A stretch of DNA of 8,607 nt from a virus. The position numbers and the translations under genes were made by a program. The stretch is from UHGV virus genome UHGV-0254280. One strand, written 5' to 3'. Positions 1 through 8,607 of the stretch are shown here, one piece after another. Every line of letters begins with the position of its first letter. Positions within the stretch are counted from its first letter, which is position 1. A model generated the notes under the pieces. The model did no database searches. It saw only the letters and a list, made by a program, of their open reading frames with translations, and was not told where the DNA came from.

Positions 1-552
<552 letters not shown>

Positions 553-556
553 TGTC

Positions 557-1762
<1,206 letters not shown>

Positions 1763-1775
1763 TTACCCCACAAAA

Positions 1776-2135
1776 TTACTTGCCAACATTAAGCCCATTT
1801 GATTTAAATAAATCATAAACCAATCGGTACACTCTATCCTTATAAAGATATATGTATGAAATAAATTGAACATGGAGGATGATATTAAAGCAGTACTGAA
1901 TATTTAAAGGCAGGTAACTGAATGCAACTACAATAACATCGAGTTTATTAACATCGGAGATTTGACGAATAATAAAATTGACGGCAGATACAAGAGCATA
2001 ATATGAAGTGTAGCAAAGACCAAGATAAGAAAGGAGCTTAGCCCATGCAACAGCTTTATCACCGATAACTCCTGCAATGAAACGTAGTGATTTTAAAACA
2101 ACATCAACAAAAAAAGCACCTAAAATGGCCCACAT
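1776..2135 (-). CDS. Minor coat protein pVI-like
   Basis: 119 aa, hydrophobic, sitting between gIII and gI. The ATG overlaps the gIII stop (ATGA), which suggests translational coupling. Assigned by position and size only. Confidence 0.6.
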   Translation of the reverse strand: MWAILGAFFVDVVLKSLRFIAGVIGDKAVAWAKLLSYLGLCYTSYYALVSAVNFIIRQISDVNKLDVIVVAFSYLPLNIQYCFNIILHVQFISYIYLYKDRVYRLVYDLFKSNGLNVGK

Positions 2136-3487
2136 CAGAGTTTTACCTCACGTTCAAATAATGTACGGCGAGAAATAACAAAAACGCGTAACATGGTTAT
2201 CATATAAATAGCATATTCAAGAACAGAACGAACATAATCGTCATAAGCTTTTGCAAAATGGCTTGTATCAATCTTGAAATTAATAGCGCCAATCAACGGA
2301 AGATCAAAGCTAAATTGTAAAATAAAAGGAAGAGCAGTTCCATTATTTGTATTTACCAGTTTGTCAATATTAACTGTAAGCCAATTGTTATTATCATGAC
2401 TCTCACTTCCCTGTCCTGGCAAGTAATGCGAAAGCTCCCCTAAAGGGAAATCCCCATCAGGCAAAGAAGAAGCTATATTCTGACTAATATCTTTAATACC
2501 ATTGTCCAGTGAATTTAATGCATTATTCATATCAGCCTGAGAAACAGAAAAAGCATTATTTAAATCATTCACTGACACCCATATTGTTTTTAACCAGCCC
2601 AAAATACCATCAAGCCAGCCATTGTCATCGCCGGATGAGCCACCGGATCCTGAACCTGAACTACCGCTACCGGATGAACCGCCGGAGCCACCGCTACCGG
2701 ATGAACCACCGGAGCCAGAACCTGAACCACCACTGCCGGATGAGCCGCCGGAACCCGAGCCGGAGCCACCGCTACCGGATGAACCACCGGAGCCAGAACC
2801 TGAACCACCACCGGAACTGCCGCCGCCTGGGTTACCACCACCGGAACTGCCACCACCTGAGCTACCGCCATCCTCCTTACCATCGGAGAATGCAGGATCT
2901 ACAGCAACTGGTTTCCAGTCGGCAGTACAAACTGTATCATCATCGGGATTACAAATAAGAGGATTGCCGGTTGCCTCATAAATACACCCCTGCACATTAA
3001 CATAACGGGTCCCGTCATCACCTTTATAAACATCAGAAAAAGTCATACCATCAAGAACCGGACGAGAAAGACAAATCTCGTCAGTTGGCGGCTTATTATA
3101 TTCAGGTGTCAAATCCCCCTCACCACCCTGAAAAGAAAGGGTGCAGGCTGTCCACTTTTGCTTGTCTGAATCCCAGACTTTATATGCTGACCACCGGGCA
3201 CGGACAAAAGACCCGACAGTCGAAGGTGCATTAACAGGCGTGGAAAGTGGCACACCACAATAATGAATTATTCCGGAACATGCGTCATAATTGCCCGAAC
3301 CACAGAAAAGATGACCGGCCGCCCTGGCTAATTTAATCGACGTCCCCGCGTCCGAATAATCTGTCCTGCAGGATGAATGGCCTGCACACTGAACAAGTGC
3401 ATCCGGATTTTCTTTCTCTTCAGCGAAAGAAAACGAGGAAAAGAACAAAAACAGAAGCGGAATAATAAAGTGAATCAAACAAAACAC
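2135..3487 (-). CDS. gIII: Adsorption / minor coat protein pIII
   Basis: 450 aa. N-terminal signal peptide MFCLIHFIIPLLFLFFSSFSFA, Cys-rich N-terminal domains, a long Gly/Ser linker of about 90 residues, and a hydrophobic C-terminal anchor. Located directly after gVIII and its terminator. Confidence 0.85.
   Translation of the reverse strand: MFCLIHFIIPLLFLFFSSFSFAEEKENPDALVQCAGHSSCRTDYSDAGTSIKLARAAGHLFCGSGNYDACSGIIHYCGVPLSTPVNAPSTVGSFVRARWSAYKVWDSDKQKWTACTLSFQGGEGDLTPEYNKPPTDEICLSRPVLDGMTFSDVYKGDDGTRYVNVQGCIYEATGNPLICNPDDDTVCTADWKPVAVDPAFSDGKEDGGSSGGGSSGGGNPGGGSSGGGSGSGSGGSSGSGGSGSGSGGSSGSGGSGSGSGGSSGSGGSGGSSGSGSSGSGSGGSSGDDNGWLDGILGWLKTIWVSVNDLNNAFSVSQADMNNALNSLDNGIKDISQNIASSLPDGDFPLGELSHYLPGQGSESHDNNNWLTVNIDKLVNTNNGTALPFILQFSFDLPLIGAINFKIDTSHFAKAYDDYVRSVLEYAIYMITMLRVFVISRRTLFEREVKL
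2620..2880. repeat. In-frame imperfect tandem repeats (27- and 39-bp units) encoding the pIII Gly/Ser linker
   Basis: The motif ccggatg recurs at 2670, 2697, 2736 and 2775 (spacings 27, 39, 39). The protein shows repeated SGSGSGGSSGSGG units. Confidence 0.8.
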
Positions 3488-3500
3488 TCCTGGTATGATT

Positions 3501-3523
3501 AAAAAAGCGCCCCGGAGGGCGCT
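3501..3523 (-). terminator. Rho-independent terminator downstream of gVIII
   Basis: On the minus strand: stem AGCGCCC, loop TCCG, stem GGGCGCT, followed by TTTTTT. Position matches the gVIII terminator of Ff phages. Confidence 0.75.
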
Positions 3524-3538
3524 ATCGTTAAATAACTA

Positions 3539-3799
<261 letters not shown>

Positions 3800-3805
3800 T
3801 TAAAA

Positions 3806-3976
3806 TTAATTAACAGCATCACTGAACATCCGGCAGACCAGAGTGAAAATAACACCAAGACCAAAGCCAAGAAGCCAGCAGACAATCCAGACATAAAGAA
3901 CGGACCAGTAAAGCTCCCCGTCCTGTACGCCAGAATTCAGTGCGGATAAAACACCGCTGAAATCAAATTCAGTCAT
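3806..3976 (-). CDS. Small hydrophobic minor coat protein (pIX-like)
   Basis: 56 aa from the internal ATG at 3976, which overlaps the stop of the upstream small ORF (TATGACTGA). Contains a transmembrane-like segment WSVLYVWIVCWLLGFGLGVIFTLV. Assigned by position between the gV-like gene and gVIII. Confidence 0.55.
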   Translation of the reverse strand: MTEFDFSGVLSALNSGVQDGELYWSVLYVWIVCWLLGFGLGVIFTLVCRMFSDAVN

Positions 3977-4109
3977 AATAACGCTGAACAGTAATGCTTT
4001 GTGAGTCACAGGCGCGAATCAGTTTTATTCCGATGCCAAAACCTGAAGAAAATAAAATCATTGCAGGCGCAGCAAATAAAACAAAGTTCAGAAAATCAGC
4101 GTCAGACAT
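3969..4109 (-). CDS. Small hydrophobic minor coat protein (pVII-like)
   Basis: 46 aa from the ATG at 4109, 5 nt after the gV-like stop. The N-terminus MSDADF resembles Ff pVII MEQVADF, and the protein has a hydrophobic core. Confidence 0.55.
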   Translation of the reverse strand: MSDADFLNFVLFAAPAMILFSSGFGIGIKLIRACDSQSITVQRYYD

Positions 4110-4113
4110 ATCA

Positions 4114-4539
4114 TCAGCCTTTTTCTTTACCTGCGGGCAGTGCACCCAGCGGCTGACCGTCAAAACGTTTCATGGAGCCGGAAATAAAACGATACCAGAC
4201 ACCATGACGTTCTGAGCCTGTCGCCCATGAGTTAACATCCACCGTGAGATAAACAGGTTTGCCCTGCAAATCAGGACATGAATTAAAAAATTTAAAATCC
4301 TCCTCAGTACAGGAAAAGCGCTCATGCTCCTCACGGCGGACTTTTAATTTTCGGTCCTCATACGGATAGGCAATAACAATGGCATATTTGGGTTTAGCCT
4401 CAGGGTTATAATGAGAACCCGTGGGTTTTAACTCCTCATCATTTATGACAGTGACGTGAATAAAATATCCCGCCATTGTCATGCCTGAGGTAAAACCCTC
4501 AGGGGAAGGAAACGGAAAACTGTCGTAAATTTGATTCAT
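4114..4539 (-). CDS. Protein in the gV position (putative ssDNA-binding protein; function not supported by recognisable similarity)
   Basis: 141 aa. Shine-Dalgarno GAGGAG 8 nt upstream of the ATG. Lies immediately downstream of Rep and upstream of the small coat genes. No obvious similarity to the 87-aa Ff gV that I can recall. Confidence 0.45.
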   Translation of the reverse strand: MNQIYDSFPFPSPEGFTSGMTMAGYFIHVTVINDEELKPTGSHYNPEAKPKYAIVIAYPYEDRKLKVRREEHERFSCTEEDFKFFNSCPDLQGKPVYLTVDVNSWATGSERHGVWYRFISGSMKRFDGQPLGALPAGKEKG

Positions 4540-4569
4540 AAATCAGACTCCTCAATGTTAAAAATTCAG

Positions 4570-6666
<2,097 letters not shown>

Positions 6667-6708
6667 TTGAGATGTATGATGAGGTATGAAAAAACAGAGG
6701 GGATATAT

Positions 6709-6897
6709 ATGCCAACAAAGCACATAAACGATGTTTTATGGAGAAAGGTAGAGAAAGAAACTGTAAAAGTGGTAACAACACTGGCAATACCAGTAAAAGA
6801 TACCAAAGTTTTAGAATGGATAATCGCAAAAGGACTGGAGTCTATAACAGAAGATGACTACAGGAAATTTGCAAAGACGGATGCAACAAAAAAATAA
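6709..6897 (+). CDS. Hypothetical small protein (62 aa), divergent from gII
   Basis: ATG at 6709 preceded by GAGGGG with a 6-nt spacer. Charged, soluble-looking protein MPTKHINDVLWRKVEKETV... On the strand opposite to all phage genes, in an AT-rich segment. No family recognised. Confidence 0.5.
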   Translation: MPTKHINDVLWRKVEKETVKVVTTLAIPVKDTKVLEWIIAKGLESITEDDYRKFAKTDATKK

Positions 6898-6938
6898 CAT
6901 TATAGTTACCTATCGATACGAAGATTGCTAGAAGCAAT

Positions 6939-7094
6939 ATGCAGACAACCAGTGAATTAATTCTTGACCTGCTGATAAAGCATTTCGTTGTTGGCAGCAT
7001 CACAGGCATGACAATATTCAGCCTGATAACGCTTGTCCCACCGTTGGTGATGACCATACACAACAAACTAAGTAAGGACACTGAAATCCTTTAA
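6939..7094 (+). CDS. Hypothetical small membrane protein (51 aa)
   Basis: Manually translated as MQTTSELILDLLIKHFVVGSITGMTIFSLITLVPPLVMTIHNKLSKDTEIL, with one predicted transmembrane segment. Weak Shine-Dalgarno. Followed by a strong hairpin at 7128-7160. Not in the supplied ORF track (below its apparent length cut-off). Confidence 0.4.
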   Translation: MQTTSELILDLLIKHFVVGSITGMTIFSLITLVPPLVMTIHNKLSKDTEIL

Positions 7095-7099
7095 GGTTC

Positions 7100-7193
7100 A
7101 GTGCGCACAATGACGTTATGTATAAAAAGGCCGCTGCGGTGGAGAGTATCGCAGCGGCCTTTTCAACATAACGCGTGTCACATTATGCGCACT
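7100..7193. other. Putative CTX-type attP: two inverted dif-like XerC/XerD sites forming an imperfect hairpin
   Basis: Site A, plus strand 7100-7126: aGTGCGCAcAA-TGACG-TTATGTaTAAA. Site B, minus strand 7193-7163: aGTGCGCATAA-TGTGACACGCG-TTATGTTgAAA. Compared with E. coli dif GGTGCGCATAA-TGTATA-TTATGTTAAAT (recalled). The two sites flank a perfect 11-bp stem and would pair with a bulged central region in single-stranded DNA. Confidence 0.6.
7128..7160. terminator. Strong hairpin, possible bidirectional terminator (gIV on minus strand, small-ORF transcript on plus strand)
   Basis: Stem AGGCCGCTGCG, 11-nt loop, stem CGCAGCGGCCT. T-runs on both sides (TTTT on plus, TTTTT on minus). Also forms the apex of the attP-like hairpin. 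Confidence 0.55.
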
Positions 7194-7246
7194 GACGTTG
7201 TGGTAGGTAAACTGAGATGCCGCGTCCTGATAATCCCGGTCGGCAC

Positions 7247-8464
<1,218 letters not shown>

Positions 8465-8493
8465 TTAAGTGCTGTTTTTCAGTCATGAAGATA

Positions 8494-8607
8494 TTCCGCT
8501 TCCTCGACCACTCGCTCACTGCGTTCGGTCGCCGGATCTGCGGCGAGCGGTACCACCACACGCGCAACTGAAGCATTCTGCCTCTCTGTTCATCCGTCAG
8601 ACCTGCC
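8494..8607. repeat. Third, partial copy of the repeat (Y plus the first part of Z), 39 bp upstream of the gIV start
   Basis: Matches 148-261 with 4 mismatches at a constant offset of 8346 bp. Runs to the end of the window. Confidence 0.9.

What the first reader, a model, noticed from the sequence alone, without database searches (positions are those of the whole stretch)
7100..7193. Two inverted dif-like XerC/XerD sites fold into a bulged hairpin, resembling a CTX-type single-stranded attP
Both arms of the chromosomal dimer-resolution site dif are recognisable twice, in inverted orientation, flanking a perfect 11-bp stem. Site A has a 5-nt central region and site B an 11-nt one, so pairing them in single-stranded DNA gives a duplex with XerC-arm and XerD-arm stems and an asymmetric bubble. 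That is the architecture described for CTXphi attP(+), which integrates irreversibly at dif using host XerCD. It predicts that this phage uses host Xer recombination rather than encoding an integrase; no integrase gene is present in the window. Both halves are adjacent here, so the window shows the unintegrated or tandem-junction configuration rather than an attL or attR.
Basis: partly seen in the sequence, partly recalled or inferred. Interest (0 to 1): 0.75.

Follow-up and report, generated by a model that had tools for sequence, protein, structure and literature searches.

The report
Filamentous phage's dif-mimicking integration hairpin
A 98-base hairpin in an E. coli filamentous phage imitates the chromosome's dif site, so the host's own XerC/XerD enzymes insert the phage there; the cholera-toxin phage CTXphi already does this, so it is a well-supported new example, not a new mechanism.

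Summary
Window 7100-7126 (+) and 7161-7193 (-) are two inverted dif-like sites with 5-nt and 11-nt central regions, flanking an 11-12 bp perfect stem. The coding (presumed packaged) strand folds into the strongest hairpin of the genome (-40.2 kcal/mol, z = -11).

The window is one genome length of an inovirus (Rep, pIII-like, Zot/pI, secretin) with no recombinase. Near-identical prophages lie as tandem arrays exactly at E. coli dif. The crossover lies within a 13-nt shared stretch spanning site B's XerC arm and cleavage point. One flank regenerates a working dif; the other keeps the whole hairpin. About 210 of 5426 complete E. coli genomes carry this junction.

Sister phages that lack exactly this 679-nt module carry an IS110-family recombinase and sit elsewhere.

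The hairpin family recurs in free circular forms of phages with three different Rep types. It always has the same strand polarity and shows compensatory changes. A pre-CTX phage folded the same way gives the same topology.

The single-stranded substrate and irreversibility remain inferred. This architecture was already reported for CTXphi, CUS-1phi and YpfPhi, so this is a new member of a known kind, of modest interest.

The parts
7098..7195 (-). Complete attP(+) hairpin. Read on the minus (coding, presumed packaged) strand it is: 2-bp flank stem, XerC-arm duplex, bulged central region, XerD-arm duplex, tip stem-loop.
   Evidence: DNA fold -40.2 kcal/mol, z = -11. Strongest fold in the genome. 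96% of cells paired, with 9 compensated pairs across 10 free-form relatives.
7183..7193 (-). Site B XerC-binding arm, AGTGCGCATAA (top strand on the minus strand). The predicted XerC cleavage is between 7183 and 7182.
   Evidence: 1 mismatch to the dif XerC arm. The crossover in prophage junctions falls inside the shared ACATTATGCGCAC.
7172..7182 (-). Site B central region, TGTGACACGCG (11 nt). The first 3 nt (TGT) equal the XerC-side of the dif centre TGTATA. TGACAC is the 6-nt bulge.
   Evidence: TGT is kept in every window-type variant, while the bulge varies: TGTGTTACACG, TGTGCCACACG, TGTGCGAATCG, TGTACGACTCG. The Arsenophonus relative (TATATA...) and the second hairpin of L018/L028 (GGT...) differ.
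7161..7171 (-). Site B XerD-binding arm, TTATGTTGAAA.
   Evidence: 2 mismatches to the dif XerD arm.
7127..7160 (.). Tip stem-loop: perfect GC-rich stem (AAGGCCGCTGCG / CGCAGCGGCCTT) and an 11-nt loop, followed on the minus strand by TTTTTAT.
   Evidence: The stem is replaced by different but still complementary sequences in Arsenophonus (L101) and in the second hairpin of L018/L028.
7116..7126 (+). Site A XerD-binding arm, TTATGTATAAA. Its complement on the minus strand pairs with the site B XerD arm.
7111..7115 (+). Site A central region, TGACG (5 nt). Its complement CGTCA is the bottom strand of the folded central region.
   Evidence: TGACG or TGGCG in all window-type relatives, GAGCG in hairpin 2.
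7100..7110 (+). Site A XerC-binding arm, AGTGCGCACAA. It pairs with the site B arm, giving a conserved T.G wobble at arm position 9.
   Evidence: T.G in 18 of 19 relatives.
6568..7246 (.). Integration/regulation module between the rep start codon and the secretin stop codon. It contains the hairpin and small ORFs (6667-6897 +, phrog_5219; 6842-7081 -).
   Evidence: Exactly this stretch is missing from sister prophages that carry an IS110-family recombinase and are not at dif.
7247..8455 (-). Secretin (pIV-like) gene. Its stop codon lies 52 nt upstream of the hairpin on the coding strand.
   Evidence: Pfam Secretin, 8.9e-25.
4570..6570 (-). Replication initiator (HUH nickase, gpA family), defining the coding/(+) strand.
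   Evidence: Pfam Phage_GPA 2.4e-48. phrog_91 'nicking at origin of replication'. 29-30% identical to the Rep of Vibrio phages fs2/VFJ and to the RstA-like proteins of pre-CTX.
557..3487 (-). Morphogenesis block: pIII-like attachment protein (2135-3487), pVI-like protein (1776-2135), Zot/pI assembly ATPase (557-1759).
   Evidence: Pfam Phage_Coat_A and Zot. PHROGs.

Best explanation
The 98-nt element is the attachment site of an integrase-less E. coli filamentous phage, of the CTXphi type.

Proposed mechanism:
1. In the circular single-stranded (+) genome (the window's minus strand), site B's top strand pairs with the complement of site A.
2. This creates a duplex that looks like dif: an XerC arm, a 5-bp central region carrying a 6-nt bulge, and an XerD arm, closed by a GC-rich stem-loop.
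3. Host XerC/XerD bind it and synapse it with chromosomal dif.
4. XerC cuts the top strand of each partner at the arm/centre border and swaps them. The shared TGT stabilises the swap.
5. Replication resolves the resulting pseudo-Holliday junction.

The prophage then has a working dif on one side (phage XerC arm + dif centre + dif XerD arm). On the other side it keeps the whole, now double-stranded and therefore inert, pair of sites. New integrations at the regenerated dif build tandem arrays. Rolling-circle replication by the phage Rep can then release new (+) circles from those arrays.

Shown here: the fold, the dif match, the dif location of prophages, the position of the crossover, the lack of a recombinase, the tandem arrays, and conservation with compensatory change.

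Inferred: the single-stranded substrate, XerC-only catalysis, resolution by replication, and irreversibility.
For: Fold and statistics.

Phage identity and strand: all core genes lie on the minus strand.

No recombinase.

Prophages at dif:
- Strain 100416 holds a tandem array between the ydeT-type pseudogenes and hipA.
- The left junction reads chromosome-ATTTAACATAA TATACA TTATGCGCACT-phage.
- The right junction reads phage hairpin-CAACATAA CGCGTGTCACA TTATGCGCACC-chromosome.
- The internal junction is identical in layout to the window.
- A four-way alignment with the empty K-12 dif locus gives the attB x attP -> attL + attR pattern, with the exchange inside the shared ACATTATGCGCAC.
- The same pattern is seen in a chicken isolate and in the unrelated prophage of E24377A.
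- A chimeric right-junction query is covered at 80% or more in 210 of 5426 genomes.

The exchange is in site B, not site A. That is what a fold of the coding strand predicts, and what a fold of the other strand does not.

The site B-first strand is the coding strand in 15 of 15 loci, spanning three Rep families.

Natural module swap: sister phages lacking window 6568-7246 have no dif-like site, carry a DEDD/IS110 recombinase and sit between ybiB and hcxB.

Free circular forms carry both halves adjacent.

Covariation: 96.3% of cells paired and 9 pairs compensated, with 0 of 500 shuffles reaching this. On the wider set: 93.9% paired, 2 of 500.

Pre-CTX folded identically: a 12-nt/6-nt centre pair, a 6-nt one-sided bulge, and the long-centre site lying 5' on the coding strand.

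Literature on the CTX mechanism and its enterobacterial relatives.
Against: - No experiment bears on this element.
- The junction sequences alone cannot distinguish a folded single strand from a double-stranded site B. The argument against the latter rests on the known need for a 6-8 bp central region.
- The folded central duplex is 5 bp, one less than dif, and no assay shows that XerCD accepts it.
- Much of the conservation could reflect recent common descent and the constraint of XerC/XerD binding rather than selection for folding. Within the closest relatives, compensatory changes are few and mostly at the stem base.
- YpfPhi, a phage with a reported site of this kind, stays almost exclusively extrachromosomal in laboratory E. 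coli (PMC4266046). Integration efficiency may therefore be low or conditional.
Confidence: 0.82

Rival explanations
1. Only site B matters, and it acts as ordinary double-stranded DNA in the replicative form (a VGJphi-type attP). Site A and the hairpin would then be incidental.
For: The crossover is in site B. Its sequence would be the same whether the substrate was folded or duplex. VGJ-type phages also use XerC-first exchange at dif (PMC4246890).
Against: - Duplex site B has an 11-bp centre (10-12 bp in relatives). Known XerCD substrates have 6-8 bp, and the literature states that CTX attP1, with 12 bp, is not a duplex substrate.
- Site A is retained with its arms complementary to site B in every relative.
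- Compensatory changes include one in the XerC arm and one at the first central base.
- The polarity relative to the coding strand is fixed in 15 of 15 loci. A duplex site would not require that.
Confidence: 0.08
2. The hairpin is primarily a morphogenetic (packaging) signal and/or the transcription terminator of the secretin gene, as hairpin A after gene IV is in Ff phages. Its dif similarity would be secondary, or it might have both roles.
For: - It lies 52 nt after the secretin stop codon on the (+) strand and is by far the strongest hairpin in the genome.
- The tip is a 12-16 bp GC-rich stem followed by UUUUUAU in the mRNA sense (-27.9 kcal/mol as RNA).
Against: - The dif match, the dif location of prophages and the crossover position are not explained by this reading.
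- Sister phages 95-97% identical in all morphogenesis genes lack the hairpin entirely and have no comparable fold. A packaging signal must therefore lie elsewhere if those phages are viable.
- The terminator scan reported no site, because the loop is 11 nt.
- In relatives the hairpin is not always next to the secretin gene.
Confidence: 0.05
3. The paired sites are a scar, not a phage-borne site. The window would be a piece of a chromosomal tandem array, and the two dif-like sites would be left over from successive insertions at dif.
For: The tandem junction in strain 100416 has the same layout as the window. The window cannot by itself be told apart from a tandem unit.
Against: - The same hairpin family is present once per genome in free circular records of 7.9-10.2 kb from Salmonella, Citrobacter and E. 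coli.
- It is also present in viral contigs.
- The centres of sites A and B are unlike the dif centre, so they cannot be copies of dif.
Confidence: 0.02

Closest known systems
CTXphi attP(+) of Vibrio cholerae (attP1/attP2 folded hairpin; Val et al. 2005, as summarised in PMC4246890 and PMC3089051)
   Same: - Two inverted dif-like sites with a long centre (12 nt; 11 nt here) and a short centre (5-7 nt; 5 nt here).
- The long-centre site's top strand lies 5' on the coding strand.
- In window-type relatives and El Tor CTXphi the centre begins TGT(G), next to the XerC arm; pre-CTX as folded here begins GGT.
- A one-sided 6-nt bulge when folded.
- Integration at dif.
- A functional dif is regenerated on one flank, and both phage sites are kept on the other.
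- Tandem arrays and no phage recombinase.
   Different: - It is much more compact: 34 nt between the XerD arms against about 90, giving a 98-nt hairpin against about 150-170 nt.
- The inserted part is a single perfect GC-rich stem-loop with a T-run.
- The folded centre has 5 rather than 6-7 paired positions.
- The host is E. coli.
- The phage encodes its own secretin and a gpA-type Rep only 29-30% identical to RstA-like proteins.
CUS-1phi (E. coli O18:K1:H7) and YpfPhi (Yersinia pestis) attachment sites
   Same: They are enterobacterial inoviruses integrated at dif in tandem. They are reported to carry a pair of XerC/XerD sites in inverted orientation suited to single-strand integration. A phage whose layout matches the published YpfPhi description (L097) carries a hairpin 87% identical to the window's.
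   Different: - The window phage is a different lineage. Its Rep is of the gpA type, whereas L097 has a gene II/X-type Rep.
- The secretin is directly followed by the hairpin rather than by two accessory ORFs.
- It has no nucleotide match to any record of the phage collection.
- I could not obtain the CUS-1 or YpfPhi sequence, so identity of the hairpin family with theirs is likely but not proven.
VGJphi-type and TLCphi-type Xer-dependent elements
   Same: They also hijack XerCD and dif and have no integrase.
   Different: VGJ has one duplex dif-like site with a normal-length centre and is excisable. TLC has a degenerate XerD arm and uses XerD-first exchange. Here both sites have abnormal centres, both XerD arms are recognisable, and the exchange is on the XerC side.
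Integron attC sites
   Same: A recombination site that exists only as a folded single strand with extrahelical bases. This comparison is made in PMC3089051.
   Different: attC sites are recognised by a dedicated integron integrase, not XerCD. There is no sequence relation.
Ff (M13/f1) packaging-signal hairpin
   Same: A long imperfect hairpin of the (+) strand immediately after gene IV (own knowledge).
   Different: It has no dif similarity and Ff does not integrate. Sister phages of the window lack the hairpin.

Membership tests
CTX-type Xer-dependent integrating element (folded single-stranded attP) | Two dif-like XerC/XerD sites in inverted orientation on the phage genome | tested here: met
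   Sites at 7100-7126 (+) and 7161-7193 (-). Two composite sites occurred in 4 of 3000 shuffles.
CTX-type Xer-dependent integrating element (folded single-stranded attP) | Neither site is a usable duplex substrate, because the central regions fall outside 6-8 bp | tested here: met
   Centres of 5 and 11 nt, and 5 with 10-12 nt in relatives. The length rule itself is taken from the literature.
CTX-type Xer-dependent integrating element (folded single-stranded attP) | The (+) strand folds so that XerC arms and XerD arms pair around a partly unpaired centre | tested here: met
   In silico only: -40.2 kcal/mol, z = -11. Same topology as pre-CTX. Compensatory changes. That the minus strand is the packaged one is inferred from gene orientation.
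CTX-type Xer-dependent integrating element (folded single-stranded attP) | Base identity with host dif next to the XerC cleavage point | tested here: met
   TGT of TGTGACACGCG matches TGT of TGTATA. It is conserved in all window-type variants; the Arsenophonus relative (TATATA...) and hairpin 2 (GGT...) differ.
CTX-type Xer-dependent integrating element (folded single-stranded attP) | Prophage at dif: exchange at the XerC side, one regenerated dif, and both phage sites kept on the other flank | tested here: met
   The junction is present in 210 of 5426 genomes.
CTX-type Xer-dependent integrating element (folded single-stranded attP) | No element-encoded recombinase | tested here: met
   No recombinase domain in any ORF of 69 aa or more that was scanned.
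CTX-type Xer-dependent integrating element (folded single-stranded attP) | Requires XerC catalysis and XerD presence; single-stranded DNA is the substrate; integration is irreversible | not testable with these tools
   This needs genetics or in vitro recombination.
VGJ-type element | A single duplex dif-like attP with a centre of normal length, and an excisable prophage flanked by two compatible sites | tested here: not met
   Two sites, with centres of 5 and 11 nt. The right junction has an 11-nt centre.
TLC-type element | Degenerate XerD arm, and first exchange on the XerD side | tested here: not met
   Both XerD arms start with TTATGT and have 2-3 mismatches. The dif centre and XerD arm stay together in attL, so the exchange is on the XerC side.
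Ff-type packaging signal | A (+) strand hairpin after gene IV that is needed for assembly | tested here: inconclusive
   The position fits. Sister phages lack it. Their viability is unknown.
Intrinsic terminator | A GC-rich stem, a short loop and a U-run | tested here: inconclusive
   The scan found none because the loop is 11 nt. The tip folds at -27.9 kcal/mol as RNA and is followed by UUUUUAU.

The most novel reading that the evidence does not exclude
The hairpin may be a self-contained, horizontally exchanged integration cassette rather than a fixed part of one phage.

- Nearly the same 94-98 nt element (84-94% identical) sits in enterobacterial inoviruses with three unrelated replication proteins, which are otherwise at most 66% identical or unalignable.
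- Full copies sit on large plasmids, and the site A/tip/XerD-arm-B part marks non-phage dif-adjacent islands on chromosomes and plasmids.
- It can be present in two copies with different XerC-arm and centre specificity in one genome (L018/L028).
- In the window's own lineage it is interchangeable with an IS110-family recombinase module.
Probability: 0.45. Interest if true: 0.5.

Novelty: new member of a known kind. Interest (0 to 1): 0.3.

Why it matters
It assigns a concrete, testable integration mechanism to an undescribed inovirus lineage present in about 2% of complete E. coli genomes. The strains among the best matches are mostly human isolates (stool where the source was given).

It also shows that the CTX-type single-strand strategy in Enterobacterales uses a compact, highly conserved 98-nt cassette. 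About 4% of complete E. coli genomes carry such a junction at dif. The minimal size makes it a convenient substrate for in vitro XerCD work in the best-studied Xer system.

The natural swap with an IS110-family recombinase offers a ready comparison of two integration strategies on one phage backbone. None of this changes the known mechanism.

Tried and rejected
- Megablast of the whole window, and of the E24377A prophage, against the phage collection found nothing.
- A genome-contig scan with the Rep protein found nothing.
- A genome-contig scan with the pattern GTGCGCAYAA-N55-85-TTRTGCGCAC returned 60 loci. By my estimate this is about the number expected by chance for a collection of that size. 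Almost all were unrelated organisms, and it did not recover Yersinia.
- I tried to obtain the CUS-1/YpfPhi attachment-site sequence for direct comparison. Gonzalez et al. 2002 is not held, and the ancient-plague paper has no held supplements. Identity with L097-type phages therefore stays an inference.
- Single dif half-sites were tested for enrichment and are not above chance on their own.
- The terminator scan and Rfam gave no hit for the hairpin.
- My first guess at the K-12 dif coordinates was wrong. I corrected it.
- Covariation on the first, wider alignment was weak, because right-junction copies have chromosomal left flanks and the sequences are very similar. I therefore repeated it on free or tandem forms plus a divergent second hairpin.

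Full report
**1. What is in the sequence**

Window 7098-7195 reads TC AGTGCGCACAA TGACG TTATGTATAAA AAGGCCGCTGCG GTGGAGAGTAT CGCAGCGGCCT TTTCAACATAA CGCGTGTCACA TTATGCGCACT GA.
- Site A (+, 7100-7126) and site B (-, 7193-7161) each have an 11-nt XerC-type arm and an 11-nt XerD-type arm of E. coli dif (GGTGCGCATAA TGTATA TTATGTTAAAT). The XerC arms have 2 and 1 mismatches and the XerD arms 3 and 2.
- The central regions are 5 nt and 11 nt.
- The repeat finder reports three nested inverted repeats: 15 nt at 93%, 14 nt at 86%, and 14 nt at 100%.
- Half-sites alone are not above chance. A full composite site is expected 0.042 times per shuffled window, and two or more appeared in 4 of 3000 shuffles.

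The minus strand folded as DNA gives -40.2 kcal/mol (z = -11.0).
- The structure is 15 bp (2 flank + 11 XerC arm + 2 centre), then a one-sided 6-nt bulge (TGACAC), then 3 centre pairs, then the XerD-arm duplex with a 1-nt bulge, then the tip stem and an 11-nt loop.
- It is the strongest local fold in the whole window on either strand.

The only refinement is that the centre is a bulge rather than a two-sided bubble.

**2. What the window is**

All large ORFs lie on the minus strand:
- secretin, 8455-7247;
- a gpA-family HUH Rep, 6570-4570;
- a 141-aa protein and small coat-size ORFs;
- a pIII-like protein, 3487-2135;
- a pVI-like protein;
- Zot/pI, 1759-557.

This is one genome length of an inovirus. 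No ORF scanned carries a tyrosine, serine, DDE or DEDD recombinase domain.

There is no nucleotide match in the phage collection. The Rep is only 29-30% identical to those of Vibrio phages fs2/VFJ and to the RstA-like proteins of pre-CTX.

In filamentous phages the packaged (+) strand has the sense of the mRNAs (established knowledge). The strand that matters is therefore the window's minus strand. On it the hairpin begins 52 nt after the secretin stop codon.

**3. Integrated copies**

106 of 5426 complete E. coli genomes match the window.

In strain 100416 (97.6% identity) two copies lie head to tail between the ydeT-type fimbrial pseudogenes and hipA, the position of dif in K-12.
- The left junction is chromosome-ATTTAACATAA TATACA TTATGCGCACT-phage.
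- The right junction is the complete hairpin ending CAACATAA CGCGTGTCACA TTATGCGCACC-chromosome.
- The internal junction has the same layout as the window.

Aligned with the empty K-12 site, these give the classical attB x attP -> attL + attR pattern. The exchange lies inside the shared ACATTATGCGCAC, that is, the XerC arm plus the three centre bases next to the XerC cleavage point.
- attL is a complete dif whose only change is the outermost XerC-arm base.
- attR keeps site A and a hybrid site B with an 11-bp centre.

The same pattern holds in a chicken isolate carrying a more divergent tandem pair. It also holds for the otherwise unrelated prophage of E24377A.

A chimeric query made of hairpin end, dif XerC arm and hipA-side flank is covered at 80% or more in 210 of 5426 genomes.

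The exchange is in site B and never in site A. This is what XerC cleavage of the top strand of a hairpin formed by the coding strand predicts. A hairpin formed by the other strand would present site A's top strand and give different junctions.

**4. A natural control**

Two prophages 95-97% identical to the window over 487-6567 and 7247-8550 lack exactly 6568-7246.
- They contain no dif-like site.
- They carry a DEDD_Tnp_IS110 + Transposase_20 protein directly upstream of rep.
- They lie between ybiB and hcxB, not at dif.

On one backbone, then, hairpin, no recombinase and dif go together, and no hairpin, own recombinase and another locus go together.

**5. Relatives of the hairpin**

The same architecture occurs in:
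- IMG/VR contigs;
- free circular records from E. coli (9.6 kb), Salmonella (7.9 kb, gene II/X Rep), Citrobacter (10.2 kb, 'replication initiation factor' Rep) and E. coli (9.6 kb, II/X Rep);
- large Klebsiella and Arsenophonus plasmids.

The architecture is a 5-nt centre, a 10-12-nt centre that begins TGT in all window-type copies, and a GC-rich tip stem.

The hairpin is 94% identical between the window and the E24377A prophage, although the rest of those genomes is at most 66% identical or unalignable.

The strand on which site B comes first is the main coding strand in 15 of 15 loci.

Pair counting gave two results:
- On 19 sequences, 93.9% of cells paired, with few compensations.
- On free or tandem forms plus a divergent second hairpin, 96.3% paired and 9 compensated pairs, with 0 of 500 shuffles reaching these values. 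The compensated pairs include one in the XerC arm, the first centre base and four tip pairs.

These counts lean on a structure derived from the window, and the sequences are related, so they are supportive rather than decisive.

A T.G wobble at XerC-arm position 9 is conserved in 18 of 19 sequences.

**6. Comparison with CTX**

The literature gives CTXphi attP1 as AGTGCGTATTA TGTGGCGCGGCA TTATGTTGAGG (12-nt centre). attP2 has a 5-7-nt centre and lies 90 bp away. XerC-only exchange is resolved by replication, and integration is irreversible. RS1, YpfPhi and CUS-1phi are listed as relatives. For YpfPhi a pair of inverted XerC/XerD sites is reported.

Folding a pre-CTX genome in the same way gave a 12-nt/6-nt centre pair, the long-centre site 5' on the coding strand, a 6-nt one-sided bulge and a roughly 90-nt structured insert. 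The window's element has the same topology in compact form, with a 34-nt insert.

**7. Rivals**

- A duplex site B (VGJ type) would give the same junctions. It is disfavoured by the 11-bp centre, the retention and complementarity of site A, and the fixed strand polarity.
- A packaging-signal or terminator role fits the position and the tip. It cannot explain the dif data, and the hairpin-less sister phages argue against it as a sole role. A side role remains possible.
- A chromosomal scar is excluded by the free circular forms.

**8. Verdict**

The element is a CTX-type attachment site in an undescribed E. coli inovirus lineage, so it is a new member of a known kind. The single-stranded substrate, XerC-only catalysis and irreversibility are inferred by analogy and architecture, not shown.

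I could not compare directly with the CUS-1 or YpfPhi sequences. A phage whose layout matches the published YpfPhi description, and which is common in extraintestinal E. coli, carries a hairpin of this family.

Noticed in passing
L090 11390-12355 (-) and L092 11164-12129 (-); corresponds to replacement of window 6568-7246: Sister prophages 95-97% identical to the window carry an IS110-family (DEDD_Tnp_IS110 + Transposase_20) recombinase gene abutting the rep start codon. They sit between ybiB and hcxB next to a DUF2726 gene. IS110 transposases are known in Neisseria Nf prophages (PMC7058167), but I found no description for E. coli inoviruses. Element ends, target sequence and any guide RNA were not examined.
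   Followed up: partly
L093 5000-5069 (pAPEC-O1-ColBM, NC_009837.1 134007-134075); L094 6000-6069 (NMBU_W05E18 chromosome, next to hipA): About 900 E. coli records, including about 480 places on large plasmids, hold an 84% match to the site A + tip stem + XerD-arm-B part of the hairpin, without the second XerC arm. In L094 it ends a 2.8-kb non-phage island (ISNCY remnant + SIR2-family gene) that starts at a perfect dif. In L093 the island carries an STM4504-family gene and a dif-like site, TGTGCGCATAA TCTATC TTATGTTAAAT. These may be decayed or different Xer-dependent islands.
   Followed up: partly
L018 4370-4463 and 4560-4650; L028 3109-3205 and 3250-3345: Two IMG/VR inovirus contigs carry two hairpins of this architecture 100-150 nt apart. 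The second has arms AGTGCGTATAA / AGTGCGTACAA, centres GGTATATGCCG / GAGCG and a different tip stem (CGGGTGCGGCG). This suggests a second target specificity, possibly another dif or a plasmid cer-like site.
   Followed up: partly
window 8551-8607 and 1-486: The Zot-secretin intergenic region contains about 1.6 copies of a roughly 339-nt direct repeat (1-110 = 340-450; 8558-8607 = 212-261). Sister prophages L090 and L092 lack this stretch. The window's ends fall inside the repeat.
   Followed up: partly
window 4598-4707 (-): This is the second strongest fold of the coding strand (-29.9 kcal/mol), inside the 3' end of rep. It is conserved in the hairpin-less sister prophage L090 (9411-9520). It is a candidate packaging signal or origin element.
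   Followed up: no
L091 4471-4503 versus 12803-12835: In one tandem array the internal site B centre is TGTGACATGCG, but the copy at the chromosomal junction is TGTAACATGCG. The fourth centre base there matches the dif centre TGTATA. This could be a trace of strand exchange or repair, or just a polymorphism.
   Followed up: no
L097 (NZ_CP128883.1) and NZ_CP128877.1 2530330-2539870: E. coli TUM14759 holds the same inovirus both as a 9.6-kb circular record and as a chromosomal prophage (99.6% identical), which suggests active replication. Phages of this type are at 99% identity or more in about 97 records, with extraintestinal lineages among those listed, and probably correspond to CUS-1/YpfPhi.
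   Followed up: partly
window 7108 / 7185 (XerC-arm position 9): Site A always has C (CACAA) where site B has T (CATAA). This gives a T.G wobble two bases from the cleavage point in 18 of 19 relatives, and also in the divergent second hairpin (TACAA/TATAA). The reason for this conserved imperfection is unknown.
   Followed up: no
OV141394.1 88121-88246 (Citrobacter youngae, 363-kb plasmid): There is a 98.4% match to the whole hairpin region, with four places in the record. This suggests a window-type phage array integrated in a megaplasmid.
   Followed up: no
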